NCBI RefSeq assembly: GCF_018977255.1
Contig: NW_024704742.1
Span: 13,518,001 to 13,582,000 of the forward strand
Direction: 5' to 3'
Origin: Callorhinchus milii
Lineage: Eukaryota
DNA: 64,000 nt
The number at the start of each line of letters is the position of its first letter. The first letter of the stretch is position 1. A program made the position numbers and the translations under genes. Under the pieces are notes generated by a model, which was not told where the DNA came from, searched no databases, and saw nothing but the letters and a program-made list of their open reading frames with translations. Below are positions 9,471 through 64,000 of this stretch, in pieces.

Positions 9471-9484
9471 TGTGTTTGCATGTA

Positions 9485-9881: not shown

Positions 9882-9889
9882 GTGAGACG

Positions 9890-10520: not shown

Positions 10521-10585
10521 ACACTGTACAGTGTATGATATATATTGTGTTTGAAGCCTGTATATACACACACATACTTTGTGAA

Positions 10586-19270: not shown

Positions 19271-19449
19271 AGGAACTCCCTGTGAGCTTCCTGGTGGCAA
19301 CACAGCTCATCACAAAATGTTTGAGATAATTGCCACTGTCTTCCTGTCCAGAGTTCAGGTGTACATCCTTTCCCACTGCACCAAGGTTCCATAAGTTGGA
19401 GGTGCGGAGTTTGCTTAAAGTATGATAAAAGGATGTAAAAATACAACAC

Positions 19450-20379: not shown

Positions 20380-21215
20380 TATGCAGATAACACCAACTCT
20401 GCCTCCACTCTCGACTCCAGGACCAAGACCACTCTGTCTTGACTGATTGCCTGTCAGATCAAGTCATGAATGAGAGCCAACTTCCTACAGTTGAATGTTA
20501 ACAACGCAGCGCCGCCTCACCTCAGCACTGAAAGCACCAATCCTCCACCTTACGGAGCCAGTGCAGAACCTCTGTTTTGTTCGAATGTCAACTGTCATTT
20601 AAACCCCACATCTGTGCCCTGACTCATTCATGTTTCCCCTACCTCTGCAACATTGCCTGCCTGTGATGCTGCCTCTCCCCTCAGGCCCTTATCCATGCTT
20701 CCATTATGTCTGGGCTTCACTACACCAACTCTCTGCACTCCCCAAACTTCCCTCCACAAGCTGCAGACCATCCAACAATCTGCAGCTCGTGTCCCACACT
20801 GGGCTCCGTGACCCTATCACCCCCATCCTGAGGGGTCCTGTAGCTCAGTGGTTGGAGTGCTCGCCTCGCAAGCGAGAGGACCTGAGTTCAATTCCTGGTA
20901 AGGCGAAATGTTGTGCAAGTTTTGTTACTCCACACCACTCTGTTTACCTAACAGTAAGTAGGAACCTGGTCATTGGTCGATTAGCAGATCGCTTTTCCGG
21001 GGGGTAACAATTTCTTAATGGATTGAGGCAGAGAGTTCCAGAGTCTCGGGGTGCAGTGACTGAAACCACAGCCACCGATGTGGAACAGAGGGAACGAGGG
21101 ATGTGAAGAATATGGTCACTCAATCTATCACTGTTTGTGGGACACTGCAGGGCACAATTGGCTGTCATGTTTCACCCACAAAATATAGTCAATTCACTTT
21201 ACAGTATGCTCTGTG
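20380..21215 (+). mobile_element. Decayed L2 fragment (20380-20830) followed by a long-variant SINE (20831-21215)
   Basis: L2 tatgcagataacacc and gccaacttcctacagttgaatgtt; SINE head ggtcctgtagctcagtggttggagtgctcgc and gagttcaattcc. Confidence 0.78.
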
Positions 21216-22745: not shown

Positions 22746-23224
22746 GTTAGGGTTAGGTCACCTGTTAGTTCAGCTGTTTGTGGGAAAATTGCTGTGCAGA
22801 ATATAGCGACACTATATTTACTGCGCAACTTTAGATGTTTGTAGATAACCATAAAAATTCAAGTTTGTTTTGTTATTTAAAACTATTAATGCATCGTAAT
22901 AATAATCTTTGCTTAATATAACACCTTATATAACCTTATCACCTTATAACACCTTAATATAACGCCAGGATCCATTACTGTAAAGCATTCTGAGACGCCA
23001 TCCAGCGTGGAGGGCGCTATATAAATCCAAGTTGTTGTTGTTATCACACCTTCGAGATGTCTCAAAGCACAGAATATACTGTAAAGTGAATTGACTATAT
23101 CTTGTAGCCAAAACACGGCAGTCAATTGCGCACAGAAGTGTCCCACAAACAGTCGTGGATTGGGTGACCAGATTATTTTTTTTTAGCTAATTTCATAAAG
23201 ATATTGTTTTGTTTTCATCCTCAG

Positions 23225-23284
23225 GCTCTGAAAAAAAGACCAGGTTTTGCAAAAATTCTTCATATCAAAGCTGAAGGAATGTGA
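23225..23284 (+). CDS. FBXO41: FBXO41 last coding exon, up to the TGA stop
   Basis: Acceptor gttttcatcctcag, phase 0. Translates ALKKRPGFAKILHIKAEGM*, resembling the recalled human C-terminus ALRRRPGFSKILHIKVEGGC. Confidence 0.93.
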   Translation, partial: ALKKRPGFAKILHIKAEGM

Positions 23285-23289
23285 AGTGT

Positions 23290-23640
23290 CCAGTAACCAA
23301 CTGAGACCAGTAACTATTGGTCCAACACCAATAATTAACCAGCGAACACCAGTAACTAACCAGCCAACATAAGTAACTAGCTAACCAACATCAGTAACTA
23401 ACTAATCAATACCAGTAACTAATCAATACCAGTAACTAACCAGCCAACACCAGTAACTAACCAGCCAACACCAGTAAGTATCCAGCCAACACCAGTAACT
23501 AACCAGCCAACACCAGTAACTAACCAGCCAACACCAGTAAGTATCCAGCCAACACAGTAACTAACCAGCCAACACAGTAACTAGCCAGCCAACACAGTAA
23601 CTAACCAGTCAACACAGTAACTAACTGACCAAAACCAGTA
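23290..23640. repeat. ~20-21 bp tandem repeat CCAGTAACTAACCAGCCAACA
   Basis: Directly visible; starts a few bases after the FBXO41 stop codon. Confidence 0.92.
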
Positions 23641-23900
23641 TAGACCACACCCACTCTCTGAATACACCACACCCACACTCCATATAGACCGCACCCACTC
23701 TCCATATAGACCACAGCCACTCTCCATATAGACCACACCCACTCTCCATATAGGCCACACCCACTCCCATATAGACCACACCCACTCTCCATATAGGCTA
23801 CACCCACTCTCCATATAGGCCACACCCACCCACTCTCCATATAGGCCACACCCACCACTCTCCATATAGACCATACCCACTCTTCATGTAGACCACAACC
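23640..23900. repeat. ~22 bp tandem repeat CCATATAGACCACACCCACTCT
   Basis: Directly visible; abuts the previous array. Confidence 0.92.
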
Positions 23901-24344
23901 AGGCTCTACAGGTGGCCTTGCACCCGTTCTGACATTGTCCTCATCCACCAGTCAATGTCCCGAGGTGCTGTACAAGTATTTCCCGACTGGCCAGAAGCAC
24001 AAACATTTTTCCATTTCCACATCTTAAATCTTGTCGTCCTGCCTCCTTGACCACACCAATCATCACAGTGTAATATTTGTCCACACAGTCTGCCCGACAC
24101 AGTCATCAAAGCCAGGGCTCTGGTGGGTTACATTGTCTGAGCGGTGACAGTGCACACGCAATGAAGATTTTTGTTCTAATTTCGATGCCTGGGTGTGCTT
24201 AATCGTCTTAAATTGGTGTCTCTGGTTCTGCTCACAATCGGAGTCAAATCTCCTGCTCACATCTACCTCATTGACGCCTCTCGGCCCTGAGGGTAGGGGC
24301 TCAGGCCGAACCACAGGCTGCACAGAGAGGACTAAGGAGCAGAC

Positions 24345-27300
24345 TGTGTGTGTCACTGTGTGTTTGTGGGTATCACTCTGTGTGTGTGTCACTGTATGTG
24401 TCATTATGAGTGTCCATCACCGTGTGTGCGTCACCGTGTGTGTGACGGTGTGTGTGTGCGTCACTGTGTGTGTGCGTGTGTCACTGTGTGTGGGTGTCAC
24501 CTTGTGTCACCCTGCGTGTGTCATTGTGTGAGGGTGTGTGTGTGTGTCACTGTATATGTGTGTGTCACTGTGTGTGTGAGGGTCTCACTGTTTGAGGGTG
24601 TCACTGTGCATGTGAGAGTGTCTCTGTGTGTGTGTCACTATGTGTGTGTTTGTCACTGTGAGGGTGTTGCTGTGTGTGTGAGGGTATCATGATATGTGTG
24701 TTTTTCACGGTGTGTGAGTGTCACTGTGTGTGTGGGTGTCACTGTGTGTGTGGGTGTCACTGTGTGTGAGGTTGTCACTGAATCATAGAATTATACAGCA
24801 CAGAAGGAGGCCAATCGGTCCATCATGTCTGTTGAGGCCTAACCAGTGTTTTATAAAACACTATGTGTCAGGGTGTCACTGTGTGTGTGGAGGTGTCACT
24901 GTGTATGTGGGTTTTACTGCAAGTGTCACTGTGTGTGTGAGGTTGTCCCTGTGTGAGTGAGGGTGCCACTGTGTGTGAGTGCCACCATGTGTGGCTGTCA
25001 CTGTGTGTGGGTGTCACTGTGAGTGTGACACTGTGTGTGGGTGGGGGAGTCACTATGTGTGGGTGTCACTGTGTGAGTGTTGCTGTGTGTGAGGCTGTCA
25101 CTATGTGGATGTTACTGTGTGTGGGTTTCACTGTGAGAGTGTCACTGTGTGGGTGTCACTATGTTGGTGTCACAGTGTGAGTGTCACTGTGTGTGGGTGT
25201 CACTGTGTGTGGGTGTCACTGTGTGTGAGGGTGTCACTGTGTGTGAGGGTGTCACTGTGTATTTGGGTGTCACAGTGTGTCACTGTGTTTGTGAGTGTCA
25301 CTGTGTGTCACTGTGAGTGTCGTGTGCATATCACTGTGTGTGAGTGTCATTGTGTGTTAGCGTTTCACTGTGTGGGTGTCATTGGGTGGGTGTCATTGTG
25401 TGTGAGTGTCACTGTGTATGAGGGTTTTTTTCACTGTGTATGGGTGTCACTGTGTGTGTGAGGTGTCACTGTATGTGTGTGGGTGTCACTATGTCTATGT
25501 GGGTGTCATTGTGTGTGAGGGTGTCACTGGGTGAGGGTGTCACTGTGTGTGTGTGCCAATGTGTTTGTATGTGTCACTGTTTGTGAGGGTGTCACTGGGT
25601 GTGGATGTCACTGTGCGTGAGGGTGCCACTGGGTGTGTGAGTGTCACTGTGCGTTTGAGTGTCACTGTGTGATTGTCACTGTGTGTGGGTGTCACTGCTT
25701 GTGTGTGGATGTCACTGTGCATGAGTGTCATTGTGTGTGTGTGTGTGTCACTGTGTATATGTGTTACTGTGTGTGTGCCTGGGTGCCACTGTGTGTGACG
25801 GTGTCATTATGTGTGTGTGTGTGTCATTGTGTGTATGTCACTGTGTGAGTGTCGCTCTGTGTGTTTCACTGTGTGCGGGTTCACTGTGTGTGTGTGGGTG
25901 TCACTGTGTATGTGAATGTGTCAGTGTGTGTATGGGTGTCACTGTGATTCTCACTGTGTCAATGTGTGGGTATCATTGTGTGTGTGTGTCACTGTGTGTG
26001 TGAGGGTGTCACTGTGTGTGTGGGTGTCACTGAATGTGTGAGGGTGTCACTGTGTGTGTGGGTGTCACTGTGTGAGTGTCACTGTGTGTGTGAGAATGTC
26101 ACTGTGTGGATGGGTGTCACTGTTTATGTCGGTGTCACTGTGTGTGGGTGTCACTGAATGTGAGGGTGTCACTGTGTGTGGGTGTCACTGCGAGGGTGTC
26201 ACTGTGCGTGAGGGTGTCACTGTGTGTGTGTCACTGTGTCTGGGTGTTACTGAATGTGTGAGGGTATCACTGTATGTGGGTGTCACTGTATGTGTGTGGA
26301 TGTCACTTTGTGTAAGGATGTCACTGTGTGTGAGGGTGATACTGTGTATGTGTGTCACTGTGGGTGTTTGTATCATTGTATGTGTGTGGGTGTCACTGTG
26401 TATGTGAGTGTCACTGTGTGTGAGTGTGTCACTGTGTGTGGTGAGTGTCACTGTGTGTGAGAGTGTCACTGTGTGGGAGTGTCACTGTGTCTGGGTTCAC
26501 TGTGTGAGGATGTCACTGTGTGTCTGGGGATGTCAATGTACGTGGGTGTCACCATATGTGTTTGTATGTCACTGTGTGTGAGGGTGTCACTGTTTGTGAG
26601 GGTGTCACTGTTTGTGGGTGTCACTGTGTGTGAGGGTGTCACTGTGTGTAGGTATCATTGTGTGTGCGTGTCACTGTGTAAGGGTGTCACTGTGTGAGGG
26701 TGTCACTGTGTGAGGATGTCACTGTGTGTCTGTCACTGTGTGTTGGTGTCACTGAATGTGTGAGTGTGTCACTGTGTGTGGGTATCACAGTATGTGTGTG
26801 GGTGTCACTGTATGTGTCTGGGTGTCATTTTGTGAGGGTGTCACTGTGTGTGGGTGTCACTGTGTGACGGTGTCAAAGTGTGTGTGTTATTGTGTTTGTG
26901 TCACTGTGTGTATGTGGCTGTCACTATATGTAAAGATGTCACTGTGTGTGTGAGGGTGGCACTGTGTGTGTGGGTGTGACTGTGTGAGGGTGACACTGTG
27001 CAGTGGGTGACACTATGTGAGTTTCACTGTATGTGGGTGTCAATCTCACTGTGTGTGAGGGTGTCACTGTGTCTGGGTGTCATTGAATGTGTTTGTATGT
27101 CACTGTGTATGAGGGTGTCACTATGTATGTGGGTGTCACCATATGTGTTTGTATGTCACTGTGTATGAGGTTGTCACTCTGTGTGAGGGTGTCACTGTGT
27201 GTGGGGGGCGTGTCACTGTGTGTGTGATGGTGTCACTGTGTGTGGGTGTCACTGTGTCTGTGGGTGTTACGTATGAGGACGTCACTGTGTGTGAGGATGT

Positions 27301-30300
27301 CACTGTGTGTGTGAGGGTGTTACTGTGTGTGGGTGTCACTGAATGTGCGTGGGTGTCATTGTGTGTGGGAGGGTTTCATTGTGTGAGGGTGTCACTGTCT
27401 ATAAGGGTGTCATTGTGTGTGTATGGGTGTCGCTGTGTGTGAGTGTCACTGAGCTTGTGAGGGTTTCATTGTGTGTGACGGTGTCATTGTAGGTGTGGGT
27501 GTCACTGAGTCTGTATGGGTGTCACTCTGTGTGTGTGAATGTCACTGTGTGAGGGTGTCACTGTGTGAGGGTGTCACTATTTGTGAGGGTGTCATTGTGG
27601 GTGAGGTTGTCACTGTGTGTGAGGGTTTCACTGTCTGTGAGGATGTCACTGTGTGTGTATGGGTGTTACTGTGTGTGTGAGTGTCTCTGTGTGTGGGTGT
27701 CACTGACTGTGAGAGTGTGCGAGGGTGTCATTGTGTATGAGGTTGTCTCCGTATGTGAGGGTGTCACTGTGTTGGGGATATCACTGTGTGTGAGGGTATC
27801 ACAGTGTGTGTCACTATGTGTCACTGTGGGTATCACTGTGTGAGGATGTCACTGTGTGTGTATGGGTGTTACTGTGTGTGTGAGTGTCTCTGTGTGTGGG
27901 TGTCACTGACTGTGAGAGTGTGCGAGGGTGTCATTGTGTATGAGGTTGTCTCCGTATTTGAGGGTGTCACTGTGTTGGGGCTATCATTGTGTGTGAGGGT
28001 GTCACTATGTTTGAGGGTGTCACTGTGTGTGAAGGTGTCACTGTGTGAGGGTTTCACTGTGTGTGGGGGTGTCACTGTGTGTGCCGATATCACTGTGTGT
28101 ATGAAGGTGTCACTTTGTGTGTGAGTGTCATTGTGTCTGTGGGTATCACTGAATGTGTGAGAGTATCATTGTGTGTCTGAGGATGTTATTGTGTGTGTGG
28201 GTATCATTGTGCGTGTGAGGGTGTCACTGTGTGTGAGGGTGTCATTGTGTGTGTGGGATATCGCTGTCTTTGAGGGTCTCATTGTGTGTGTGAGGGTTTT
28301 ATTGTGTTTGTATGGGTGTCACTGTGTTGTGTGAGTGTCACTGTGTGTGGAGGTATCACTGTGTGTGAGTGTCATTGAGTGTGTGAGAATGTGCGAGGGT
28401 GTCCTTGTGTGTGAGGGTGTTCTTGTGTGTGAGGGTGTCACTGTATGTGAGAGTGTCACTATGTGTGGGGATATCACTGAGTGGGTGTCACTATGTGTGA
28501 GGGTGTCATTGTGTGTGAGGGGTGCCACTGTGTGTGAGGGTACCACTGTGTGGGGATGTGATTCTGTGTAAGAGTGTTACTATGTGTGGGGGTGTCACTG
28601 TGTGTGGGTGTCACTGAGTGTGTGAGGGTATCACTGTGTGTAGGTGTCACTGTGTCTGTGAGGGTGTCTCTGTGTGTGTGAATGTCACTGTGTCTGTTGG
28701 TGTCACTGAATGTGTGGGTGTGTCACTGAGTGTGAGTGTGACTATATATGTGTGGGTGTCACTATGTGTGGGTATCATTGTGTGTGTATTGGTGTCACTG
28801 TGTGTGTGAGGGTGTCATTGTGTATGTGAGGGTGTCACTGTGTGTGGGTATCACTGTGTGTGTATTGGTGTCACTGTGTGTGTGAGGGTGTCATTGTGTA
28901 TGTGAGGGTGTCACTGTGTGTGGGGGTATCACTGTGTGTGAGGGTGTCACTGTGTGTGGGGGTTTCACTGTCTGTGAGGATGTCACTGTGTGTATGGGTG
29001 TTACTGTGTGTGTGAGTGTCTCTGTGTGTGGGTGTCACTGACTGTGAGAGTGTGTGAGGGTGTCATTGTGTATGAGGTTGTCTCCGTATGTGAGGGTGTC
29101 ACTGTGTTGGGGATATCACTGTGTGTGAGGGTGTCACTATGTGTGAGGGTCTCATTGTGTGTGAGGGTGTCACTATGTGTGAGGGTCTCATTGTGTGTGA
29201 GGGTGTCACTGTGTGTGGGGGTTTCACTGTCTGTGAGGATGTCACTGTGTGTGTGGGTGTCACTGACTGTGTGAGAGTGTGTGAGGGTGTCATTGTGTAT
29301 GAGGGTGTCACTGAATGTGTGAGGGTGTCATTGTGTGTCTGAGGATGTTATTGTGAGTGTGGGTATCATTGTGCGTGTGAGGGTGTCACTGTGTGAGAGT
29401 GTCATTGTGTGTGTGAGGATATCGCTGTCTTTGAGGGTGTCATTGTGCGTGTGAGGGTGTCACTGTGTGTGAGGGTGTCATTGTGTGTGTGAGGGTTTTA
29501 TTGTGTTTGTATGGGTGTCACTGTGTTGTGTGAGTGTCACTGTGTGTGGAGGTATCACTGTGTGTGAGTGTCATTGAGTGTGTGAGAATGTGCGAGGGTG
29601 TCCTTGTGTGTGAGGGTGTTCTTGTGTGTGAGGGTGTCACTGTATGTGAGAGTGTCACTGTGTGTGCGGATATCACTGAGTGGGTGTCACTATGTGTGAG
29701 GGTGTCATTGTGTGTGAGGGGTGCCACTGTGTGTGAGGGTACCACTGTGTGGGGATGTGATTCTGTGTAAGAGTGTTACTATGTGGGGGTGTCACTGAGT
29801 GTGTGAGGGTATCACTGTGTGTAGGTGTCACTGTGTCTGTGAGGGTGTCTCTGTGTGTGTGAGTGTCACTGTGTCTGTTGGTGTCACTGAATGTGTGGGT
29901 GTGTCACTGAGTGTGAGTGTGACTATATATGTGTGGGTATCACTATGTGTGGATATCATTGTGTATGTGAGGGTGTCATTGTGTGTGTGAGGGTATCATT
30001 GTGTGTGTATAGGTGTCACTGTGTGTGAGGGTGTCACTGTGTGTGTATATGTGTCACTGTATGTGATGGTGTCACTGTGTGATGGTGTCACTGTGTGAGG
30101 GTGTTATGACTATGTGTGAGGGTATCATTGTGTGGGTGTGACTGTATGTGTAGGTGTCACTGTGTGGGTGTCACTGTGTGTGCGTATCATTGTGTGTATG
30201 TTGGTGTCACTTAGTGTGAGGGTGTCGCTGTGTGTGTGAGGGTGTCACTGTGTGTGTATGGGTGTCACTGTATGTGAGGGTGTCACTGGGGATATCACTA

Positions 30301-30580
30301 TGTGAGGGTGTCGCTGTGTGATGGTGTCATTGTGTGTGAGGGTGTCACGTTGTGTGGGGGTATCACTGTGTGTGAGGGTCACTGTGTGGGGGTATCACTG
30401 TGTGTGAGTGTGTCACTGTGTGGGGGTATCACTGTGTGTGAGTGTGTCACTGTGTGGGGGTATCACTGTGTGTGAGGGTGTCACTGTGTGTGGTTGTCGA
30501 TGTGAGGGTGTCGCTGTGTGTGGTTGTCGATGTGAGGGTGTCGCTGTGTGTGGTTGTCGATGTGTGAGGGTGTCACTGTG
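24345..30580. repeat. ~6.2 kb GT-rich minisatellite (GGGTGTCACTGTGTGTGA-like unit) with higher-order duplications
   Basis: Directly visible. ORFs 28335..28571 and 29534..29770 are near-identical, 1199 bp apart. Confidence 0.95.
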
Positions 30581-31235
30581 TTACTTTGTGAGGTCGTTGC
30601 TTCAGGATATTCACTGCACCTCAGAAACTGCACAGTTGGGTTGAAGCTAAATGGATTTGGTGCTATATCAATCCCAGTATTTATTGAAGACAAGGACACG
30701 TCTCTGGGGAAGTTACAGAAATGAGAAATCAGCAACCCAATCACGAGCCAGAGTTTTAGTTACCACAAAATTAACATGCGATTGTCTCTCATTAACATCG
30801 TAGAAATGACAGCACAGTGTGTGGAGCTCACACTGGAGCCAAAGTGTCTTATAGCTCCTGAAATCCATCAAAACTGCTAATTTGCCTTCACACAGCATCA
30901 CACCCTGTGGTGAACGACTTCCCCACGGGCTTGGAATCAGCCCAGTGTTTTTCCTTTCTTACAAAGTATTTGGCATTGGAACCAGAATCAGAGCCAGGAA
31001 TATCTCAGTGAGACTTCACGTTGAAATGGAATTTAAACTGAATTTCTGATTTGAACCCATGATGGATGAGAGCTTTTCTGCAGGGCAGTTTGACGTGAGA
31101 AATGGAAGTCACAAGAGAGAGGGGAAGGAGTGATGGTAAATGTTGGTGCTCAGCCACTGTGTTGCAGTTTCATGGCATCACTTTGACCTGTTTCTCTACT
31201 CATCTTAGATGTCAATTGAACTGAACTGAGTTTAT

Positions 31236-31382
31236 CAAAAGGCAAAGTACTGCAGATGCTGGAAATCTGAAATCAGTTCTGACGAAAGGTCATCGACCTG
31301 AAACGTTAACTCACTTTTCTCTCTCCATAAATGCTGCCTGACCTATTGCATGTTCCCAGCGACTTCTGTTTATATTTATGAT
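31236..31382 (+). mobile_element. Penelope-like-element-derived short insertion carrying a minimal hammerhead ribozyme motif
   Basis: CTGACGA at 31279-31285, stem AGGTC/GACCT, then GAAACGT at 31300-31306. Flanked by the 10 bp direct repeat CTGAGTTTAT (31226-31235 and 31383-31392). Confidence 0.75.
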
Positions 31383-32138
31383 CTGAGTTTATGTTCTTTG
31401 TATTGCTAATGTGGTGCAGTCCTTTGTGGGGAATTTTTTTATTGAACCAAATGGGGGCCTAGAAGTGTCAACTGTGTAATCTTTTATCAGGAGCTGAGCC
31501 TAAGTAGTGTGTCAGCGCTCAAAGCTCTGAGTACTGACAGTTGTAACTTACGGCAGCTATCCTAATAACAAAATAGAAAACAGTTCATCTTTGTCTGAGG
31601 ATGAAGCCATTCTGATCTGTACTGGGCAGCTTATTACTGAAATGATTTGCTGATGAATGCATACTTTGTGGCTGAATTTTTTCTGCAGTCGAACTATCTT
31701 TGCCTGTGTTAAACTGCAAACTGAAGTGCTCTCTCTGCACAGTCTGGCAGCCCTGCTGCTGCTCATATGACATAAGGACATATGACATTGGCACCTTTCA
31801 CCTGCATGAATGCTACAATACATGATAAAATCTGTCCCAACAAAAAGCTGATTTGGGGTAAAATGGTGCGTTGTCCTGTTTCTGAGCCCAGCCCAAGGCA
31901 ATAGGATCAGATTAACATGTTTCCAGTTGTTCAGACAATCGGTGGTTGTGGACACACTACTTTGCATTATATTGTCACTCCTGTCACATTTTGGGAGTTT
32001 AATGCTGGAGGCAATGTGTACAGGAAATTCCAAAGTCTCCTTGTTAGCAAAAAAACGCTGGTACATACATTATATACATTTTAGTATCTTTGTGAAAAAA
32101 TGCAAACAGAAACTGAGGAATAATTTTAAAAAGAAGGA

Positions 32139-32162
32139 AATAAAAATATATTTAAAAATAAA
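32139..32162 (+). promoter_or_regulatory. Candidate FBXO41 polyadenylation signals (two AATAAA)
   Basis: AATAAA at 32139-32144 and 32157-32162 are the first canonical signals I saw after the stop codon. They end a unique, UTR-like segment at ~30600-32170. No transcript evidence. Confidence 0.4.
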
Positions 32163-32352
32163 GAAACAGTAATTCCTGCAGGAGCTGGCCTCATGAGCAG
32201 TCAGAGGCCACAGCTGAATAGCTTAAAAACTAACACAGTGTAGTTACTACTTTGACTATGATATTCCACACCCCAACAACTGTCCGTGAAAATATTCCTC
32301 CTACCCCCCCCACCTCCTGCTTCCTTGCTAATTATCGTATTGCTAATTATCA

Positions 32353-32680
32353 TGGAGTCCTGTAGTGAAGTGGTTAGAGCACTCGCCTAGCAAGTGAGAG
32401 GACCTGGGTTTGATTCCCGGCAGGGCAAAATGTTAGGCAAGTTTCCACATGCCTAGGTATAGCAGTAAGTAGGAACCCGGTTGTTAGTTGATTGGCGAAT
32501 TGCTGTTCCGGAGGTAATAATTACATCAAAAAACAATAATTGGTCACTGAATCCATGACTGTCTGTACACAATAGGCTGCCGCATTTCGCCAATAAAATA
32601 TATAGTCACAACACTTTACAGTATATTCTATGAAGCGCTTTCAGACATTTTGAAGATGTGATAATGAAAGGATGATTATT
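32353..32680 (+). mobile_element. SINE, long variant
   Basis: Head ggagtcctgtagtgaagtggttagagcactcgc, B box gggtttgattccc, internal gcagtaagtaggaaccc segment, ATT tail. Confidence 0.85.
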
Positions 32681-32734
32681 ACTACATACCTCAATCAGGT
32701 CTGTAAATATAAAAGCAAGTCCCAATGTGTTTGA

Positions 32735-34280
32735 TATGGGAAGGTCCTGTCTGACAAAGTTACTGGAGTATGTTGACAGGAACAACAGGGATTTTCAGAA
32801 GGTTTTCGACAAGGTTCCACACAAACAATTTGTGGCTCAGGTCAGGGGATGTGGGATCAAGGAGACAACAGCCAAATAGATAGAGAAGTTTCTAAAGGGG
32901 AGAAAACAATTGGATGGATAGATATGGTGAGTGATGTACCTCAGGGATCTGTTCTGGAACCCCAACTATTCACATTGTATATCAAAGATTTGGACCTAGG
33001 AATATATAGTGAGAAATATCAAGATGATACAAAGGTAGGGGGAATAGTTCAAAATGAAATACAGGTGTATTTGTATTTCATCTGAGTGGGCAGACAAATG
33101 GCAGATTGAGTTCAATGGAAAAGGTGTGAGGTAGTTTATTTCAGGCGTAAAAATATAGGAGGAACCTATACTTAAAAGGGATAAATCTTAAAGGGGTAGA
33201 AGAACAGAGGGACTAAGTGGTATAGGTTCACAGGTCACTGAAAGCAGTGACCCAGCTGGATAAGATCGATTAAAAAAGCCAATGCAGCCTTAGGCTTATA
33301 GCTAGGAGAATAGAGTTATGAGATCATGTTGAATCTGTACAAAACAATGATCAGGCTACAATCGTAATACTTTCTGCAGCTCCTCATTGTAGGAAAGATG
33401 TAAAGGTGCAGTTACAATAAACATTTACCAGGATATTGCCTGGAATGAGGAAATAGAGTTACAGGGAAAGGCTTGACAAACTGGGCCTGGATTTTCTATG
33501 GAGCTCAGAAGTCTGAGAAGAGATCTAATAGAGGCATATAATATGATGGGAGGCTTAGAAAGGGTGGACAGGAAAAGATTATTTCTGGTGGTAGGCAGTC
33601 TAGAACGAGAGGGCATAGTTTTAGAATCAGAACAGACCTGAAATTCGGAGGAATTTTCTGACACGGAAAGTGAGCATTGAGAGTGTGGCATTCTCTGCAA
33701 CTGTCATTAGTGGTGAGCAGCAACCATGTCTACAGATGGTTAAGAGGGAATAAATTATAATAATAATATCCTTGCATTTGATATAGCGCTGTTTCACGTC
33801 TTCTAGACGTCTCAAAACGCTTCACAGAATAGACTGTAAAATGAATTGACTGTATATTTGTGGGCGAAATGCGGCAGACAATTGTGCACAAACAGTGTCC
33901 CACAAGCAGTCGTGGTTTGAGTGACCAATTTATTATTGTTTTTTTTCTTGAGGGATTATTATCAGGTGTGTGGAGTAAGGAAACTTGGCCAATGTTTCAC
34001 CCTGCCGGGAATTGAACTCAGGTCTCTCGCTTACAAAGCTAGTGCTCTAACCACTGAGCTACAGGAAGTTGAGGGATATGGGGAAAAAGCCGGGATATAC
34101 AAGGGATAGTCCATCCACATTAAAGTATATCCTGTGAAGCTCTTTGAGATGTCTCAACAATGTGATAAGGCACTATATCAAATGCAAGGATTATTTATCA
34201 CAGGAATGGGAACTCTTGTAAAAGTATAAAAACCAGCTGGACTGGATGCACTGAATGGTCTGTTTCTGAGCTGGACCATT
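32735..34280 (+). mobile_element. Old CR1 3' fragment with a minus-strand SINE inserted at ~33755-34065
   Basis: Motifs DFQKVFDKVPH, VPQGSVLEPQLF and DDTKVGG; full SINE with tRNA head on the minus strand. Confidence 0.82.
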
Positions 34281-35872: not shown

Positions 35873-36489
35873 CCTTTCTGTCTGTCTGTATCTTTCTCTC
35901 TGTCTGTATCTCACTCTGTTTCCCTCGCTCGCTATCTGGCTGCATCTCTCTCTCCGTATGTCTGTTGGTATATCTCTGCCTGTTATCTGTCTACATATCT
36001 CTCTGTATATCTCTCTGTATCTCTATCAATTAACTTTACAGTACCATGAACTGCTTTGAGACATCACAACAACTGATAAGGCGTTATATCAAATGCAAGG
36101 ATTATTATTACCAGTATCTCTATCCATCTGTATCTGTATCTGTTCTCCTGAGGATATAAAACATTTCTTATTGTTGCCGTGTGTAAAGCACAATTAGACA
36201 TGTGGCTGAGTATGACAATGTGACCGGGTTTTGCAATGTGACAGAGAGGCTTAGACTTGCATTATTTGTACCATTTTCATGAGATGCACTTTTGTAACTA
36301 AACGTTGGCTGTTTATTTGCTTCATTGTCACAAAACGATTCCTTTGTTCCTGTCACTGCCTTTGCTCTGATTACCTGTGACTGGCATTGAATTACACAGT
36401 GCATCATTACAGGATTGAAACAGACCAATCCCCCAACTCGTCCAGGCCAGTGTTCATACCCAATACAAGCTTCCGCCCCTGTAAACACC

Positions 36490-39400
36490 TCCACCCCTCT
36501 ATTCCCCTCTCCCACACCCTCCCCCTCTCCATTCCGCTCTCCCACACACACTATTCCCCACTCCCACACACTCTCTATTCCCCTCTCCCACACACCCCTT
36601 TATTCCGCTCTACCAAAAAACTCTCTAATGCCGTCTCCCACACACGCTTTTATTCCCATCTCCCACACCTGTCTATTCCCCTCTCCCACAACCTCTATTC
36701 CATTCTCCCACATTCCCCTATCCCACACAACCCTCTATTCCCCTCTCGCACATCTCTCCTTCCCCTCTCCTACACCACTCTATTCCCTCTCCCACACACT
36801 CTCTAATCCCCTCCCATACACCCTTTTATTCCCCTCTTCTACAACCCTCTATTGCCCTCTCTCCCAAAAAACCCTCTTATCCCCTCTCCCACATACCCTT
36901 TTATTCCTTTTTCCCACACCTGTCTAGTCCCCTCTCCCACACACCCTTTTATTCCATTCTCTCACGCACCCATCTTTTCCCTTTTCCTACACTCCTCTGT
37001 TCCCCTCTCCCCCATACCCTCCATTCCCCTCCCACACACCCTTTTATTCCACTCTCACACACACACATCTTTTCCCCTCTCCTACACCCCTCTTTTCCTT
37101 TATTGCACACCCTCTATTCCCCTCTCCCACACCCCTCTATTCCCCACTCCCACACCCCTTTGTTCCCTTTTCACACCCCTCTATTCCACTCTCCAAAACA
37201 CCGTCGATCCCCCTCTCCCACACAGCCCTCCAATCCCCTCTCCCACACACCTGTTTATTCCCATCTCCCACACATCCCTTTCTTCCACTCTCCCACACCC
37301 CTCTATTTCGCTCTCCCACACATCCCTCTAATCCCCTCTCCCACACACCCTTTTATTTCCATCTCCCACACCCCTCTACTCTCCCACATCATTTTTCCCC
37401 CTCTCCCACACATCCATTTATTCCCCTTTCGCACACATCCCTATATTCCCCTCCTACATGCTTCTATTCCCCACTCCCACACACCCTCCATTCCCCTCTG
37501 CCACACACCCCTTTATTCCCCTCTCCCACACCCCTCTATTCCACTCTCCCAAAAAAACTTGATTCCCCTCTCTCACACAGCATCTATTCCCTCCTCCCAC
37601 ACAGCCCTTTATTCCCCTTTTGACCATACCCTTCTATTCCCCTCTCCCACACCCTTCTGTTGCCCACTCCCACACACTCTCTATTCCCCTCTCTCACACA
37701 TCCCTTTATTCCCATTTCCTACAAACCTCAATTGCACTCTCCCACTCACCCTCTATTTCGCTCTCCTACAACCCCGTATTTACTCTCCCATACCCCTCTA
37801 TTACCCTCTCCCACACACACTTCATTCCCATCTCCTACACAACCGCTATTCATCTCTCCCAAAAAAATCACCTCTCCCACACACCCTTTTACCACACCTG
37901 TCTATTCCTCTCTCCCACCACCTCTATTCTGCTCTCCCACACCCCTCTATTCCCCTCTCGCACACACACCTCTATTCCACTTCCACACACCCCTCTATGC
38001 CCATCTCCCACACACACTCTATTCCCCTCTCCCACATAGCCCTTTATTCCCCTCTCCCACATAGCCCTTTATTCCCCTCTCCCACATAATCCTTTATTCC
38101 CCTCTCCCACATACCCTCTAATTCTCTCTCACATGCACCTCCTATTCCATTATCCTATAACTCTATTCCGCTCTCCTACAGCCTTCTATTACCCTCTCCC
38201 ACACAATCACTATTCCTCTATCACAAAACACCTTCTCCTACTGCTCCCACACCCATCTGCTCCCCTTTCCCACACACCTGTTTATTCCAGTCTCCCACAC
38301 CTGTCTATTCCCCTCTCCCACAAGCTCTATTCCCCTCTCCCACACACCCCTATGTTCCACGCTCCCAAAAAAACTCTACTCCCCTCTCTCACACACTCTA
38401 TTCTCCTCTCCCACATGCTGTTTTATTCCTGTCTCCCACACTCATCTATTTCCCTCTCCCACTCCTCTCCCGCACACCACTCTATTCCACTCTCCTACAC
38501 CCCTCTATTCCGCACTCCCACACACCCTCTATTCCCCTCTCCCATACATCCTTTTATTCCCCTTTCCCACACATCCCTTTATTTCCCTCTCCCACACAGC
38601 TCTCTCATCCCCTCTCCCACTCACCCTTTTATTCCAGTCTCCCACACATGTCTATTCCCCTCTTCCACAAGCTCTATTCCCATCTCCCACACCCCTCTAT
38701 TCGCCTGTTGCACACACCCCTCTATTCCACTCTAAAAACCCTCTATTCCCCTCTCTCACATGGCATCTATTCCCCTCTCCCACATAGCCCTCTAATCCTG
38801 TCCCATACACCTGTTTATTCCCATCTCCCACAAACCCCTTTATTCCATTCTCCCACAACCCTCTATTCTGCTCTCCCACACACTGTCTATTCCCCTCTCC
38901 CACACAGTCCTCTAATCCCCTCTCCCACACACCCTTTTATTCCCGTCTCCCACACCCACCTATTCCCCACTCCCACACATCCTTTTATTCCCCTATCGCA
39001 CACACCCCTTTATTCCCCTATCGCACACAACACTCTTATCCCCTCTCCTACACCACTCTGTTCACCTCTCACACACATCCCTTTGTTCTCCTCTCCTGCA
39101 ACTCTCTATTCCCCTCTCCTATTCACCCTCTCTTGCAACCCTATCTTACCCTCTCCCACACACACTTTGTTCCTCTCTCCGACACAACCGCTATTCCTCT
39201 CTCCCACAGAAGCCCTCTAAACCCCTCTCCCATACACTTTTATTCCCCTCTCCCACATACACTCTATTTCCCCTCTCCCACATACGCTCTATTCCCCTCT
39301 CCTACACTGCTCTATTTCCCTCTCACATGCCTCTATTTCCTGCTCCCACACACCGTCTATTCCCCTTTCCCACACACCCCTTTATTCTGCTCCCCTACAG

Positions 39401-42400
39401 CTCTCTATTTCCCGCTCCCACACACCCTTTATTCTCCTCTCCCACACAACCGCTATTCCACTCTCCGAAAAAAAACCTCATTCTCCTCTCCCACACCCAT
39501 CTAATCCCTTCTCCCACACAGCCCTCTATTCCCCTCTCCTATACACCCTCTATTCCCCTCTCCCGCACACCCTTGTTTTCCCTCTCCCACACAACCGCTA
39601 TTCCTCTCTCCCAAAAAACCTTCTACTCCCCACTCCCACATCCATCTATTCCCCTCTCCCACACATCCCTTTATTCTGCTCTCCCACAATCCTCTATTCC
39701 CATCTCCCACACACCACTATTCCCCTCTCCCATACAACTGCTATTCCTCTCTCCCGAAAACCCCTTACCCACACCCATCTATTCCCCTCTCCCACACCCA
39801 TCGTTTCCGCTATCCCACACATCCCTCTATTCCCCTCTCTCACACAGTATCTATTGCCCTCAGCCACACAGCCGTCTCCCGCTTTTATTCATGATTCCCA
39901 GATCATCTATTCCCACCTCACACACACCCCTCTATTCCACTCTCACTAAAAAACCTCTATTCCCCTCTCTCACATAGCATCTATTCCCCTTTTCTACATC
40001 TTTCTATTCCCCAATCCCACACATCCTCTATTCCCCTCTCCTACAACCCTCTATTCCACTCTCCCACAACCCTCTATTCCCCTCTCCCACACCCATCTAT
40101 TCCCTTCTCCCACACAGCCCTCTAATCCCCTTTCTCACACACCCTTTTATTCCCATCTCCCACATACCTCTATTTCCTTCTCCCGCACACCCCTTTATTA
40201 GGCTCTCCCACAACCCTCTATTCCCATCTCCCACACACCATCTGTTACCCTCTCCCACACACCCCTCAATTCCCCTATCCCACACATTCTCTATTCCTCA
40301 CTACTTTCCCCCTCTATTCCACTCTCCCGCACACTCCTTTATTCCCCTCTCCCACAACCCTCTATTCCATTCTCCCACATAGCCTCTGTTTTGCTCTCCC
40401 ACACACCCTCTACTCCAATAATCTCTTATAATCCTATGTTCCCCTTTCCCAATCACCCTCTATTCTCCTCTCCCACTCACCCTTTATTACCCTCTTGCAC
40501 CCCTTTTTTCCCTCTCCCACACAACCGATATTCCTCTATCCCAAAAAACCTATTCCCTGCTCCTAAACCCACCTATTCCCCTCTCCCACACGGCTCTCTA
40601 ATTCCCCCCTACGCAACCTTTTGTTTCAGTCTCCCACAGCTGTCTATTTCCCTCTCCCACAAGCTCAATTTTCCCTCCCACACACCCCTCTGTACCCCTC
40701 TCCCACAACCTCTATGCCCCTCTCCTACAACCCTCTATTCCCCACTTCCACATGCTCTATTCCTCTCTCCCACACAACCTCTATTTCCCTTTCCCACACA
40801 CACTCTTCCCCTCTCCCACAACCTCTATTCCTGCTACCACACCCTCTATTCCCCTCTCCCACAACCTCTATTCCCAATACCACACCCTCTGTTCCCCTCT
40901 CCCACACACCTCCTATTCACATCTCCCACACTATTCCCTTTCCTACACAGCCACTGTTTCCTTCTCCCACATCCTCTTTTCCCCGCTCTCCCACACACAC
41001 TCTATTCCCCTCTTGCACACACACAGTTTTCCCCTCTCGCGCACAGCCTCTATTCCACACTCCCAAATCCTCCATTGCCGTCTAACACACACACACTATT
41101 CCCATCTCCCAAACCCTCTACTTCCCTCTCCCCCACACACTCTATTCCCCTCTCACACACCCGCTATTTCATTCTCCTACACGCCGCTCTATTGCCTTCT
41201 CCCACACACACACTCTATTCCCCTTTCCCACACACCCTATTCCACTCATCCACACATCTCTATTCCCCTCTCCTACACAACCTATTCCCCTTTCCCACAC
41301 ATCCATTAATCCCCTCTCCTACATCTTCTTTTCCCCCCTCTCCCACACACACTTTTCCCCTCTCCCACACACACTCTATTCCACACTCCCAAACACTATA
41401 TTCTCCTCTCCCACACACACCCTAGTCCCCTCTTCCGCACCCTCTATACCCCTATCTCTGACACCCTCTATTCCACTCTCCCACAGCTGCTATTCCCCTC
41501 TCCCACACCCTTCGATATCTTTCTGCCGCACCTTCTATTCCCCACTTACACAATCCCTATTATCCTCATCCATACCCATCTATTCCCCTCTTCTACATGC
41601 CCCTCTATTCCCTTCTCCCACACACCCTTTTTCCCTTTTCCCACTTATTCCCCTCTCCTACACCCATCTATTCCCCACTCATGCACCCCTCTATTCCACT
41701 CTCCCACACACCCTCTATTTCCCTCTCCCATACACCCTTTATTGCCCTCTCGGACACCCTCTTATGCCCACTCTCCCACACAATCTCTATTTTCCTCTAC
41801 CACACTCTCAATTCCCCTCTCTCCCACACCCTCTATTCCCTTCTACCATACCATCTATTCTCCTCGCCCACACACCTTCTATTCCCCTCTCCTACACCAT
41901 CTTATCCCTTCTCCTACACACCCTCTATTGCCCTCTCCAACACTCTCTATTCCCCTCTTCTACACACCGTCTATTCCCATCTCCCACACACTGTATTCCT
42001 CTTTCCTACACATCCACTATTCCCCTCTCCCACATCCTCTTTTCCCCGTGCTCCCACACACGCTTGATTTCTCTCTCCCACACACACTCTGTTCCCCTCT
42101 CCCAAACCCTCTATTCCCCTCTTCCGCACCCTTCTATATGCTTCTGCCACACCTTCTTTTCCCCTCTCCCACACGCGCCTCTATTCCCTTTCCCCACACA
42201 CCTTCTAATCCCCTCTCCCAATGCTCTTTTCCGCTCTCCTACATCCCTGTATTCCCTACTTCCACATTCCTCTGTTCACCTTTCCCACACCCCTCTATTC
42301 CCCGCTCCCACACACCCTCTCTACCGCTATGCCACACCCTCCATTCGCATCTCCCACACACCCTCTGTCCAACACCCATCTATTCCCTTCTCCCACAAAC

Positions 42401-43410
42401 CATCTATATAAAATGATCAAATAGGGAAGTTGGAAGAAATTTTTTCATGCACAGAGTAATGGGAATGTGGAAAATACTACCACAAGGAGTTTTTGAGGCA
42501 AATAGCATAGATGTATTTCAGGGAAAGCAAGATAACCTATTTCTCCCTCAACTTAGTTGAAGAAGGGCAGGAGGAGGCTCATGTGGAGCACAAACACCAG
42601 CATAGACTAGTTGGGCCGAATGGCCTGTTTCTGTGCTGTATATTCTAATGTAAACCGTTTATTCCCCTCTCCCACATACCCACTATTCCCCTTGTGCACA
42701 CTTTTATTCCCTCCTCCCAAATATCCGTTTGTTCATGTCTCTCATAGTGTCGATTCCCCTCTCTCATACAGCCCTATATTCCCCTTTCCCACACCACCTC
42801 TGTTCCCCTCTTCTACATACCCTCTAATCCCCTCTCCCACACCCATCAATATCCCTCTTCTCTTCTCTTCTCTTCTCCCACAAACACTATTCCCCACTCC
42901 CACACCCTCTGTTCCCTCCTCTCCCACACACCCTCTATTCCCCTCTCCCACACCCATCAATATCCCTCTCCCACTCTCTATTCCCCTCCATGATACATCC
43001 TCTATTGCCCTCTCCCACATACCCTCTATTCCCCTCTCCTCCACACCCTTTATTCCCCTCTCCCACACCTCTCTATTCCCTTCTCCCACACCCTCTATTC
43101 CACTCTCCCACACACCCCCTAATCCCCTCTCCCAGACACCCTCTATTTGCCTCTCCTATACCCCTGTATTCCACTCTCCCACTTTATTCCCCTCTCCCAC
43201 ACACCCTCTGTTACCCAATCGCACACACTCTATTCCCGTCTCCTAAACTCCTCTATTCCCCTCTCACACATCCATCTATTCCCCTCTTCCACACCCCTCT
43301 ATTCCCCTCTCACACACCCATCTATTCCCCTCTTCCACACCCCTCTATTCCCCTCTCCCACACTCCCTCTATTTTCTTCTCCCACAACCTCTTTTCCACT
43401 CTCCTACACC
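36490..43410. repeat. ~6.9 kb pyrimidine-rich minisatellite (CTCTATTCCCCTCTCCCACAC-like unit), interrupted by a CR1 3' end at ~42430-42650
   Basis: Directly visible diverged units. The insert ends ttgggccgaatggcctgtttctgtgctgtatattct. Confidence 0.95.
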
Positions 43411-43414
43411 TCTG

Positions 43415-43760
43415 TGATGATAAAACTCGGAAGAGACAAGGACGGGAGTTCCCTGTAGACTCTGATGGAGAAAGGAGAGGGTGGGTCCATCCCACCCAAC
43501 CCCTCCTTTCTCTGTCGGAGTCCACAGGGGCTGTATATTATCCTGTACTGTCTACACTGTGGGCAACAAGTTCATTTTGTGGCAGTCTGCAACGAGTTGT
43601 CCTACAAAAAGGTGGGGCACACTTCAAGGCAATGCCCCTCCTCCAACCGTTGTCGCCTTCGTGGGAAAGAGGGACACCTGTACAGGTGTGGCCCCAAAAG
43701 AGTGTGTAACAACTGCCCGAGTCACAGCAGCCCGAGGCCGGGAGTAGGGCACAGCATTGG
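43415..43760 (+). mobile_element. Decayed Tx1/L1-clade ORF1 (ZCCHC3-like) fragment with three CCHC zinc knuckles
   Basis: ORF 43465..43803 has one intact CX2CX4HX4C (CLHCGQQVHFVAVC) and two decayed knuckles (KKVGHTSRQC, CRLRGKEGHLYRC). Upstream KLGRDKDG and IPPNPSFL. Confidence 0.7.
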
Positions 43761-44630: not shown

Positions 44631-44659
44631 ACACTGAGAGAGATGTAATGTTATAATTT

Positions 44660-63859: not shown

Positions 63860-64000
63860 ACAACAGAACCGACCGTTCTGATGAAGGTTTGCGGACCCGA
63901 AATGTTGACTCACTTTCCTTTCTCCATAGATGCTACCTGACCTGCTGAGTGTTCCCAGCGACTTCTGTTTTTGTTTCAAACTTGTTTCAAACAGCATCTG
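63860..64000 (+). mobile_element. Second Penelope-type hammerhead-bearing repeat (runs to the window end)
   Basis: CTGATGA at 63878-63884, stem GGTT/GACC, GAAA at 63899-63902. The downstream actcacttt..tctccata.atgct.cctgacct...tgttcccagcgacttctgttt matches 31309-31371. Confidence 0.72.

What the first reader, a model, noticed from the sequence alone, without database searches (positions are those of the whole stretch)
31226..31392. Minimal hammerhead ribozyme cassette, TSD-flanked, in sense orientation within the putative FBXO41 3' UTR
Seen: AGTT-CTGACGA-A-AGGTC(atc)GACCT-GAAA-CGT-T-AACT. This gives stem I AGUU/AACU, the CUGANGA and GAAA core, stem II, and a self-complementary ACGU in place of stem III. 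It sits in a 147 bp insert bounded by an exact 10 bp duplication (CTGAGTTTAT). Established: Penelope-like elements carry minimal type I hammerheads with palindromic stem III that cleave as dimers, and 3' UTR hammerheads are known in rodent Clec2 genes. Inference: if the mRNA extends to the AATAAA at 32139, it carries a potential self-cleaving site upstream of the poly(A) tail. Caveats: the triplet here is GUU (weaker than GUC), the motif is monomeric, and the repeat is probably abundant in the genome, so it may be neutral.
Basis: partly seen in the sequence, partly recalled or inferred. Interest (0 to 1): 0.7.

Follow-up and report, generated by a model that had tools for sequence, protein, structure and literature searches.

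The report
Penelope retroelement fragment with minimal hammerhead
The motif is real, but it is the tail end of one of thousands of broken copies of a Penelope-like jumping gene that landed about 8 kb downstream of the FBXO41 coding sequence, a well-described kind of element, and nothing shows that it cuts the FBXO41 message.

Summary
Observation confirmed. A 147-bp insert (31236-31382) lies between exact 10-bp duplications. It carries CUGACGA...GAAA with a 4-bp helix I, a 5-bp helix II and a palindromic ACGU, on the FBXO41 strand.

It is one copy of an abundant repeat: at least 3,698 first-look candidates and 1,836 exact core motifs in this ~0.99 Gb genome. Longer copies place the same module about 225-240 nt downstream of a reverse-transcriptase/GIY-YIG ORF, so the family is a Penelope-like element (PLE).

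The first 38 nt of the insert are the PLE "tail", inverted. The remaining ~104 nt are the PLE 3' end, starting exactly at the hammerhead. That boundary recurs in 29 of 42 sampled copies.

The motif fits the published metazoan PLE "min-HHR", including the extra base before helix II. The exception is A-U in place of G10.1-C11.1; a larger sister subfamily has G-C. No Rfam hammerhead model matches.

Folding favours an inactive hairpin. Published min-HHRs do not cleave as monomers.

The site is 8.0 kb past the FBXO41 stop, beyond ~6.7 kb of tandem repeats. Membership in the 3' UTR could not be shown.

This scan found the same kind before in shark genomes. Verdict: ordinary, and probably neutral.

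The parts
31226..31235 (.). Left copy of the target-site duplication, CTGAGTTTAT
   Evidence: It is one of only two exact occurrences in the window. In 10 of 19 same-architecture copies elsewhere, the flanks share an exact repeat of 8-12 nt. Only 4 of 342 mismatched-flank controls do.
31236..31273 (-). 38-nt PLE 'tail', inverted relative to the hammerhead module
   Evidence: In other copies the same 38 nt follow the 3' module in direct orientation (L023; L084; 5 of 12 loci). In others they lie at the outer end of an inverted arm (L016, L017, L027, L036). This matches the published 30-40 bp tail (Craig et al. 2021, passages; Frangieh et al. 2024).
31274..31312 (+). Minimal type I hammerhead motif. 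Helix I is 31275-78 with 31308-11; CUGACGA is 31279-85; the unpaired A is 31286; helix II is 31287-91 with 31295-99; GAA is 31300-02; palindromic ACGU is 31303-06; U17 is 31307.
   Evidence: This stretch shows no difference from the column majority of 70 other copies. The pattern CTGANGA-N(10-20)-GAAACGTTAACTC has 344 exact genome matches, and the reversed-pattern control has 0.
31313..31382 (+). The rest of the PLE 3' terminal module. The family ends at ...CTTCTGTTTTTATTT; the last 5 nt here, ATGAT, are not shared with other copies.
   Evidence: Alignments. All 7 substitutions relative to the majority fall in this part.
31383..31392 (.). Right copy of the target-site duplication, CTGAGTTTAT
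23222..23284 (+). End of the last FBXO41 coding exon, with stop codon TGA at 23282-23284 (context)
   Evidence: tblastn with shark and ray FBXO41 proteins P0005 and P0007: 7 exons from 377 to 23281 on the + strand. Sequence read.
23322..30581 (.). Tandem-repeat arrays between the stop codon and the insert (context)
   Evidence: Tandem Repeats Finder: 23322-23640 (21 bp x 15.6 copies), 23639-23901 (22 bp x 11.7 copies), 24436-30581 (18/36-bp unit, about 172-340 copies).
32139..32144 (+). First AATAAA or ATTAAA after the FBXO41 stop codon (context); a second AATAAA is at 32157
   Evidence: sequence read.
63873..63975 (+). Second, decayed solo copy of the same 3' module. It is of the G-C helix II subfamily and also begins at the hammerhead.
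   Evidence: BLAST: 80% identity over 102 nt. Motif CTGATGAAGGTTTGCGGACCCGAAATGTT.

Best explanation
The 147-bp insert is a dead-on-arrival, heavily truncated insertion of a Penelope-like retrotransposon (PLE). It consists of a 38-nt inverted 'tail' joined to the ~104-nt 3' terminal module of the element, and that module carries the family's minimal hammerhead (min-HHR). It was made by target-primed reverse transcription, which left a 10-bp target-site duplication. The two-armed form fits the published PLE mechanism, in which the GIY-YIG endonuclease cuts both DNA strands, both strands are extended, and reverse transcription starts at two internal sites that flank the tail. The hammerhead is there because it is part of the PLE 3' module. 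At this locus it most likely does nothing, because a single min-HHR has no helix III and needs a second copy, and probably the element's protein, to cleave. Shown here: repeat membership, the link to PLEs, the architecture, the duplication, and intact motif boxes. Inferred: the insertion mechanism, taken from the literature, and neutrality. One further inference concerns the recurrent 5' end exactly at the hammerhead start: it suggests that many template RNAs begin there, for example from a promoter inside the pseudo-LTR, so that reverse transcriptase runs off after about 104 nt.
For: Abundance. There are 57 matches among the 40 scored of 3,698 first-look candidates. Exact-pattern counts are 344, and 992 + 495 + 298 + 51 = 1,836 for the four variants of the closing pair of helix II. 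All reversed-pattern controls gave 0.

Link to PLEs. In long copies (L036, L072, L084) the module lies about 225-240 nt after the stop of an ORF that ends in a GIY-YIG-like domain. The 470-aa ORF P0121 shows a YIDD motif and ...VVYCIHCSRCGPLYIGES.... It has 185 homologues at E<=1e-10, many with precomputed RVT_1 and GIY-YIG domains. Homologue P0141 scores RVT_1 at 8e-7 and GIY-YIG at 2.3e-5.

Tail and inverted arms: matching passages in PMC8557442 and PMC11167929.

Target-site duplications. In 10 of 19 copies with the same architecture, the flanks share repeats of 8-12 nt, against 4 of 342 controls.

Discrete 5' end at the hammerhead start. It is seen in 23 of 30 pattern-derived loci of the A-U subfamily (these include the window's own copy and one duplicated pair) and in 6 of 12 of the G-C subfamily (read by eye from the printed flanks).

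Min-HHR features match those listed by Cervera and De la Pena 2014.

No sign of use at this locus. The HHR-like monomer fold scores +0.2 kcal/mol against an MFE of -9.2 for an alternative hairpin. The double-hammerhead dimer scores -10.9 against a dimer MFE of -23.1.
Against: The window copy itself has no ORF, so the PLE assignment rests on homology of its 104-nt module to longer copies. Pfam gave no significant hit for three ORF fragments, and only GIY-YIG at E=0.13, below the cut-off, for P0121. All three CpGs and every other position of the 38-nt motif are unchanged, while 7 substitutions fall in the adjacent 66 nt. That could hint at constraint. However, several of those differences are shared with other copies and so look like subfamily variants, and the contrast is not significant by my rough estimate. 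Covariation support for the helices within the sampled copies is weak: 8 double-change cells against 3.4 +/- 1.6 in shuffles, with 6 of 500 shuffles reaching the observed value, and related copies inflate this measure. The samples of copies were chosen by similarity or by an intact motif, so they are not an unbiased census.
Confidence: 0.85

Rival explanations
1. Exapted ribozyme. The copy lies in a long FBXO41 3' UTR and self-cleaves in vivo, either by pairing with other PLE hammerhead transcripts or with the help of PLE protein. That would remove the poly(A) tail and lower FBXO41 expression.
For: It is on the same strand as FBXO41. No AATAAA or ATTAAA occurs between the stop codon and 32139, so the site lies upstream of the first canonical signal. 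The motif boxes and all three CpGs are intact. A preprint reports that retrozyme copies overlapping exons tend to lie in 3' UTRs in Xenopus (passage).
Against: The site is 8.0 kb past the stop codon and behind about 6.7 kb of tandem repeats. The copy is a monomer; the nearest other copy is 32.5 kb away. Helix I and the palindrome have only 4 bp each. Predicted folds favour a non-catalytic hairpin. Single min-HHRs did not cleave detectably in vitro and dimers cleaved poorly. No reads began or ended at the hammerhead site in anole RNA-seq. The motif is simply the family's commonest form.
Confidence: 0.03
2. A separate non-autonomous family. On this reading the 147-bp unit (tail + hammerhead module) is a SINE-like or retrozyme-like element with its own master copies, mobilised in trans by PLE enzymes, and not an independently truncated PLE insertion.
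For: 19 of the 30 best genome hits to the whole insert share the tail + module architecture. The 5' end of the module is discrete. The literature describes non-autonomous derivatives of PLE pseudo-LTRs (abstract and passages).
Against: The junction between tail and module differs in length and sequence from copy to copy, with 0 to about 25 extra nt. That points to independent joining events and not descent from one master. Among loci picked only by the motif, the architecture is rare: 3 of 30, including the window's own copy. The 19 of 30 were selected by similarity to the full insert. There is no tandem arrangement at this locus.
Confidence: 0.1
3. At the family level the motif is not mainly a ribozyme. 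The conserved structure would serve as part of the RNA module that the PLE protein binds to start reverse transcription, and cleavage would be incidental.
For: In the anole element, catalytic hammerhead mutants did not change insertion in vitro, and the minimal template overlaps the hammerhead region. PLE clades without hammerheads proliferate well. Here the module from the hammerhead start to the tail is the unit retained in most copies. The predicted monomer fold pairs the catalytic box with the cleavage-site strand.
Against: The catalytic boxes CUGANGA and GAAA, the C3/G8 positions and the NUH triplet are kept in both subfamilies. Published PLE hammerheads do cleave as dimers or with protein.
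Confidence: 0.15

Closest known systems
Minimal hammerhead ribozymes (min-HHR) in the pseudo-LTRs of metazoan Penelope-like elements (Cervera and De la Pena 2014, PMC4209133)
   Same: A type I motif with CUGANGA and GAAA boxes. Helix I is short (4 bp). There is one unpaired base between positions 9 and 10.1. There is no helix III loop, only palindromic 15.1-16.1 (ACGU). It lies in sense, downstream of the RT/GIY-YIG ORF. Thousands of mostly solo copies exist, and some lie in opposite-strand pairs.
   Different: Helix II closes with A-U instead of the usual G10.1-C11.1 in the window's subfamily. Helix II has 5 bp with a 3-nt loop, whereas the Schistosoma examples have 7-8 bp. The main text of that paper does not mention cartilaginous fish; I did not read its supplements.
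PLE insertion architecture with a 30-40 bp 'tail' and inverted 5'-truncated arms (Craig et al. 2021, PMC8557442; Frangieh et al. 2024, PMC11167929)
   Same: A 38-nt tail is present at one end only. Related loci have inverted arms. Target-site duplications vary in length. The module 3' ends either before or after the tail, as expected from two reverse-transcription start sites.
   Different: Here the inverted arm is reduced to the tail alone, and the direct arm stops exactly at the hammerhead start. I did not find that recurrent boundary described in the parts of the papers I read.
Animal non-LTR retrozymes (Cervera and De la Pena 2020, PMC7229834, search listing only; Li et al. 2026 preprint, abstract and passages)
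   Same: Short non-coding units related to PLE pseudo-LTRs that carry type I hammerheads.
   Different: Retrozymes are tandem repeats that give circular RNAs. This locus holds a single unit with a target-site duplication and no tandem partner.
Discontinuous hammerhead in rodent Clec2 3' UTRs (described in the review PMC6765202, passage)
   Same: A hammerhead motif located between a stop codon and a polyadenylation signal, in sense.
   Different: The Clec2 ribozyme is a complete split hammerhead that cleaves in vitro. This one is an incomplete min-HHR from a repeat, its membership in the UTR is unproven, and no cleavage is expected from a monomer.

Membership tests
Metazoan PLE min-HHR (Cervera and De la Pena 2014) | Catalytic boxes CUGANGA and GAAA in type I order, with C3 and G8 present | tested here: met
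   CTGACGA is at 31279-31285 and GAAA at 31300-31303.
Metazoan PLE min-HHR (Cervera and De la Pena 2014) | [quoted passage not shown] | tested here: met
   A at 31286. It is kept in 62 of 64 aligned copies; two have a gap there. It is also present in both subfamily patterns.
Metazoan PLE min-HHR (Cervera and De la Pena 2014) | Highly conserved G10.1-C11.1 pair closing helix II | tested here: not met
   The window copy has A-U (31287 with 31299). Genome counts with the rest of the motif fixed are G..C 992, A..U 495, G..U 298 and A..C 51. The pair is therefore kept by a double change between two subfamilies. That is one event, not independent replication.
Metazoan PLE min-HHR (Cervera and De la Pena 2014) | Palindromic 15.2-16.2 with no helix III loop (dimer design) | tested here: met
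   ACGT at 31303-31306. The C-G pair is standard in 54 of 64 copies and the A-U pair in 62 of 64.
Metazoan PLE min-HHR (Cervera and De la Pena 2014) | Short helix I (4-5 bp) and an NUH cleavage triplet | tested here: met
   AGTT pairs with AACT (4 bp), and the next pair is a C/C mismatch. The triplet is GUU. In helix I, 85.9% of cells are paired across 64 copies.
Metazoan PLE min-HHR (Cervera and De la Pena 2014) | Families full of covariation and compensatory changes | tested here: inconclusive
   There are 8 double-change cells in 3 of 11 pairs, against 3.4 +/- 1.6 in shuffles (6 of 500 reach the observed value). Pairs with a double change number 3 against 2.7 (263 of 500). The copies are related and were partly chosen by motif.
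Metazoan PLE min-HHR (Cervera and De la Pena 2014) | Self-cleavage, as dimer or with cofactors | not testable with these tools
   Only thermodynamic predictions were possible, and they do not favour the catalytic fold.
Penelope-like element (canonical, endonuclease-bearing) | A single ORF with reverse transcriptase followed by a C-terminal GIY-YIG endonuclease | tested here: met
   This holds for long family copies, not for the window copy. P0121 has YIDD and GIY-YIG-like motifs. Its homologues carry RVT_1 plus GIY-YIG. P0121's own Pfam GIY-YIG hit is only E=0.13.
Penelope-like element (canonical, endonuclease-bearing) | A 30-40 bp tail at one end, and inverted or tandem partial copies | tested here: met
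   The 38-nt tail is at 31236-31273. Inverted arms are seen in L016, L017, L027, L036 and L044, among others.
Rfam hammerhead families | A score against a curated covariance model | tested here: not met
   No hammerhead family appeared among matches up to E=10 in 30000-33000 or in 31255-31330. This is expected for a motif that has no helix III hairpin.
Non-LTR retrozyme | Tandem head-to-tail repeats of the hammerhead unit | tested here: not met
   There is one unit at this locus, and the only other copy in the window is 32.5 kb away.
3' UTR hammerhead (Clec2 type) | The site lies inside the mature mRNA between the stop codon and the poly(A) site, and it cleaves | not testable with these tools
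   The position is compatible, but no run on record as RNA was available, so the extent of the transcript is unknown.

The most novel reading that the evidence does not exclude
The intact hammerhead copy lies inside an unusually long, repeat-filled FBXO41 3' UTR. It is cleaved in neurons when PLE protein or other PLE hammerhead transcripts supply the missing half of helix III. On this reading, activity of a retroelement family would tune the stability of a host mRNA.
Probability: 0.03. Interest if true: 0.6.

Novelty: new member of a known kind. Interest (0 to 1): 0.15.

Why it matters
It matters little for the locus itself, because the finding is explained as an ordinary retroelement fragment. 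It does add a cartilaginous-fish-type PLE family with two hammerhead subfamilies that differ by a compensating change at the closing pair of helix II. It also documents a sharp, recurrent 5' end of short copies exactly at the hammerhead start. [quoted passage not shown]

Tried and rejected
RNA evidence. The look-up of sequencing runs listed no RNA holder: 12 runs hold the stretch, and none is on record as RNA. I laid contigs of four runs whose kind is only guessed. Contigs cover 30650-31265 and 31298-32388. One 59-nt contig spans 31244-31302 without a difference. Cover continues at similar depth past 32139 to about 33785 in three of the runs. No contig bridges the whole insert. This shows neither transcription nor a transcript end, so I do not use it either way.

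Rfam. No hammerhead hit appeared at E<=10 in a 3-kb search or in a 76-nt search.

Pfam. There was no hit for the short GIY-YIG ORF fragments or for the 470-aa ORF at E<=0.01.

L083. This locus was fetched for a reported 913-aa open frame. It gave only a 320-aa frame running off the stretch, and I dropped it.

Test for copies that begin at the predicted cleavage site. The two hits that started at query base 3 were fetched; one has a deleted hammerhead and the other an intact one, and neither has a clean cleavage-site end. The test therefore remains undone.

Lunse, Weinberg and Breaker (RNA Biol, PMC5785218) is not held. I know it only through the review PMC6765202.

Earlier notes for this genome: none.

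Literature searches for this family: 'hammerhead ribozyme' + 'elephant shark' gave 0 papers. 'hammerhead ribozyme' + 'Penelope' + 'Chondrichthyes' gave 3 papers, and I saw none of them describe this family (listing and passages only).

Full report
1. What is in the sequence. The + strand at 31274-31312 reads CAGTTCTGACGAAAGGTCATCGACCTGAAACGTTAACTC. In hammerhead terms the parts are these. Helix I is AGUU (31275-78) with AACU (31308-11). The box C3-A9, CUGACGA, is at 31279-85. One extra A is at 31286. Helix II is AGGUC (31287-91) with GACCU (31295-99), closed by the loop AUC. G12-A14 are at 31300-02. The self-complementary ACGU is at 31303-06 and U17 at 31307, so a cut would fall between 31307 and 31308. 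A pattern of the two boxes with the 3' flank occurs once in 64 kb, against 0.00 expected. A looser pattern occurs twice, against 0.02 expected. CTGAGTTTAT occurs only at 31226-35 and 31383-92, which bounds a 147-bp insert.

2. It is a copy of an abundant repeat. A search of the window's own ~991.5 Mb genome with the insert gave 3,698 first-look candidates. 40 of them were scored, and they gave 57 matches. Exact-pattern counts are 344 for CTGANGA-N(10-20)-GAAACGTTAACTC. For the motif with the four variants of the closing pair of helix II, the counts are 992 (G..C), 495 (A..U), 298 (G..U) and 51 (A..C). Every reversed-pattern control gave 0. A second, decayed copy lies in the window at 63873-63975.

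3. The repeat is the 3' end of a Penelope-like element. In longer copies (L036, L072, L084) the hammerhead module follows, after about 225-240 nt, the stop of an ORF whose end reads like a GIY-YIG nuclease. The longest frame I translated (P0121, 470 aa) contains YIDD and ...VVYCIHCSRCGPLYIGESKRRLGDRFAEH.... It has 185 homologues at E<=1e-10, and the best named ones are from sharks and rays. Many of them have precomputed RVT_1 and GIY-YIG domains. Homologue P0141 scores RVT_1 at 8e-7 and GIY-YIG at 2.3e-5 in my own scan, while P0121 itself reaches only E=0.13 for GIY-YIG. Reverse transcriptase followed by a C-terminal GIY-YIG endonuclease is the canonical PLE architecture (Craig et al. 2021, passages).

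4. Anatomy of the insert. The first 38 nt (31236-31273) and the rest are separate modules.
- In 19 of the 30 best hits the two modules are joined as they are here, but with a junction that varies by 0 to about 25 nt.
- In other copies the 38 nt lie on the opposite strand, directly after the 3' module (L023, L084, and 5 of 12 loci).
- In still others they lie at the outer end of an inverted arm that faces a direct arm (L016, L017, L027/28, L036).
This is the published PLE signature: an inverted 5'-truncated copy next to the direct one, and a 30-40 bp 'tail' at one end only. Frangieh et al. 2024 showed in vitro that the anole PLE protein cuts and extends both DNA strands, and that reverse transcription starts at two internal sites that flank the tail. 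The window insert therefore reads as an inverted arm reduced to the tail, joined to a direct arm of about 104 nt.
Target-site duplications of variable length are typical of such copies: in 10 of 19, the flanks share repeats of 8-12 nt, against 4 of 342 mismatched controls.

5. A sharp 5' end. Among loci picked only by an intact motif, the homology to long copies stops within 6 nt of the hammerhead start in 23 of 30 loci of the A-U subfamily. That set includes the window's own copy and one duplicated pair. The same holds in 6 of 12 loci of the G-C subfamily (read by eye). The remaining 13 of 42 continue into the element's 3' UTR. Random 5' truncation would not give this pattern. My inference, which is not shown, is that many template RNAs start there, for example from a promoter in the pseudo-LTR, and the reverse transcriptase runs off. 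The boundary is not the hammerhead cleavage site, which lies about 34 nt further downstream.

6. Is it a hammerhead of the known kind? Cervera and De la Pena 2014 (main text read) define metazoan PLE min-HHRs by these features: the two boxes; a short helix I (4-5 bp); an unpaired base between positions 9 and 10.1; a conserved G10.1-C11.1 pair; and palindromic 15.2-16.2 without a helix III loop.
- All of these are met here except G10.1-C11.1, which is A-U in this copy and its subfamily.
- The larger sister subfamily (GGGUC-GUG-GACCC) has G-C, and G..U intermediates are common while A..C is rare. The pair is thus kept through a double change. This is one event between two lineages that also differ in the loop, so it is suggestive only.
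- On 64 aligned copies, 88.5% of cells are paired. Double changes are few: 8 cells, with 6 of 500 shuffles reaching that number. This is weak evidence, as expected for decaying copies of a few masters.
- No Rfam hammerhead model matches at E<=10, which is expected for a motif with no helix III hairpin.

7. Will it cut here? Three lines of evidence bear on this.
- Predicted folding: the 48-nt core prefers a hairpin that pairs UGACG of the catalytic box with CGUUA around the cleavage site (-9.2 kcal/mol). The helix I + II arrangement scores +0.2. A double-hammerhead dimer scores -10.9, against -23.1 for the best dimer and -18.4 for two monomers.
- Published tests: there was no detectable cleavage for a single min-HHR and low cleavage for dimers. 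The anole PLE hammerhead cleaved only with the element's protein, its mutants did not affect insertion, and no RNA-seq ends mapped at the site.
- This copy: it is a monomer, and the nearest other copy is 32.5 kb away. Its module is 92.3% identical to the column majority of 70 other copies. All 7 substitutions lie outside the motif, but several of them are shared with other copies, so I see no significant sign of constraint.

8. Gene context. Seven FBXO41 exons map on the + strand from 377 to 23281, at 80-91% identity to shark and ray proteins. The stop codon is at 23282-84. Tandem arrays begin 38 nt later and fill 23322-23901 and 24436-30581. The first AATAAA or ATTAAA after the stop is at 32139. 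The motif is thus in sense, 8.0 kb downstream of the stop and upstream of the first canonical signal. That is compatible with a very long 3' UTR, but it is not evidence for one. No run on record as RNA was available (see the field on what was tried and rejected).

9. Verdict. The element is an ordinary truncated PLE insertion of a kind described since 2014. This scan noted the same kind before in shark genomes. The suggested role in FBXO41 mRNA is unsupported and unlikely.

Noticed in passing
window 23322-30581: Tandem repeats start 38 nt after the FBXO41 stop codon: a 21-bp array, a 22-bp array, and a ~6.1-kb GT-rich 18/36-bp minisatellite. In six-frame translation they give long Cys/Val-rich pseudo-frames. 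There is no AATAAA or ATTAAA in the whole 8.85 kb after the stop.
   Followed up: partly
window 20834-20906 (+), 32356-32428 (+), 33997-34068 (-), 46555-46626 (-), 55467-55529 (-): Five matches to the tRNA model lie above the gathering score. They are probably heads of tRNA-derived SINEs, since contig depth over 32330-32665 and 33674-34000 is hundreds to thousands of times that of the flanks.
   Followed up: no
window 32567-32602: One contig of run X1 shows six A-to-G differences within 36 nt next to the SINE. Such a cluster could be RNA editing, a paralogous copy or an allele, and the run's kind is only guessed (table 3).
   Followed up: no
window 18610-19306 (-) and 32676-33085 (+): ORF fragments have LINE-type reverse-transcriptase motifs, for example ...[12 protein letters not shown]... 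and ...VPQGSVLEPQLF.... They look like ordinary decayed LINE copies.
   Followed up: no
window 5000-10700 (-) and 36100-44700 (+): There are dense sets of overlapping long stop-free frames in all three frames of one strand. This suggests further low-complexity or tandem-repeat tracts like the one at 24-30 kb.
   Followed up: no
Related loci L043-L072 and L085-L096: Short PLE copies end at their 5' side exactly at the first base or bases of the hammerhead helix I in 29 of 42 loci. I did not find this boundary described in the parts of the PLE papers I read.
   Followed up: partly
window 31279-31309 (RNA fold): The catalytic box UGACG can pair with CGUUA at the cleavage site, giving a hairpin that encloses helix II (-9.2 kcal/mol). 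A similar but shorter pairing (GACG with CGUU) is predicted in two of the three G-C subfamily copies folded. It may be an 'off' conformer of the family's hammerhead.
   Followed up: partly
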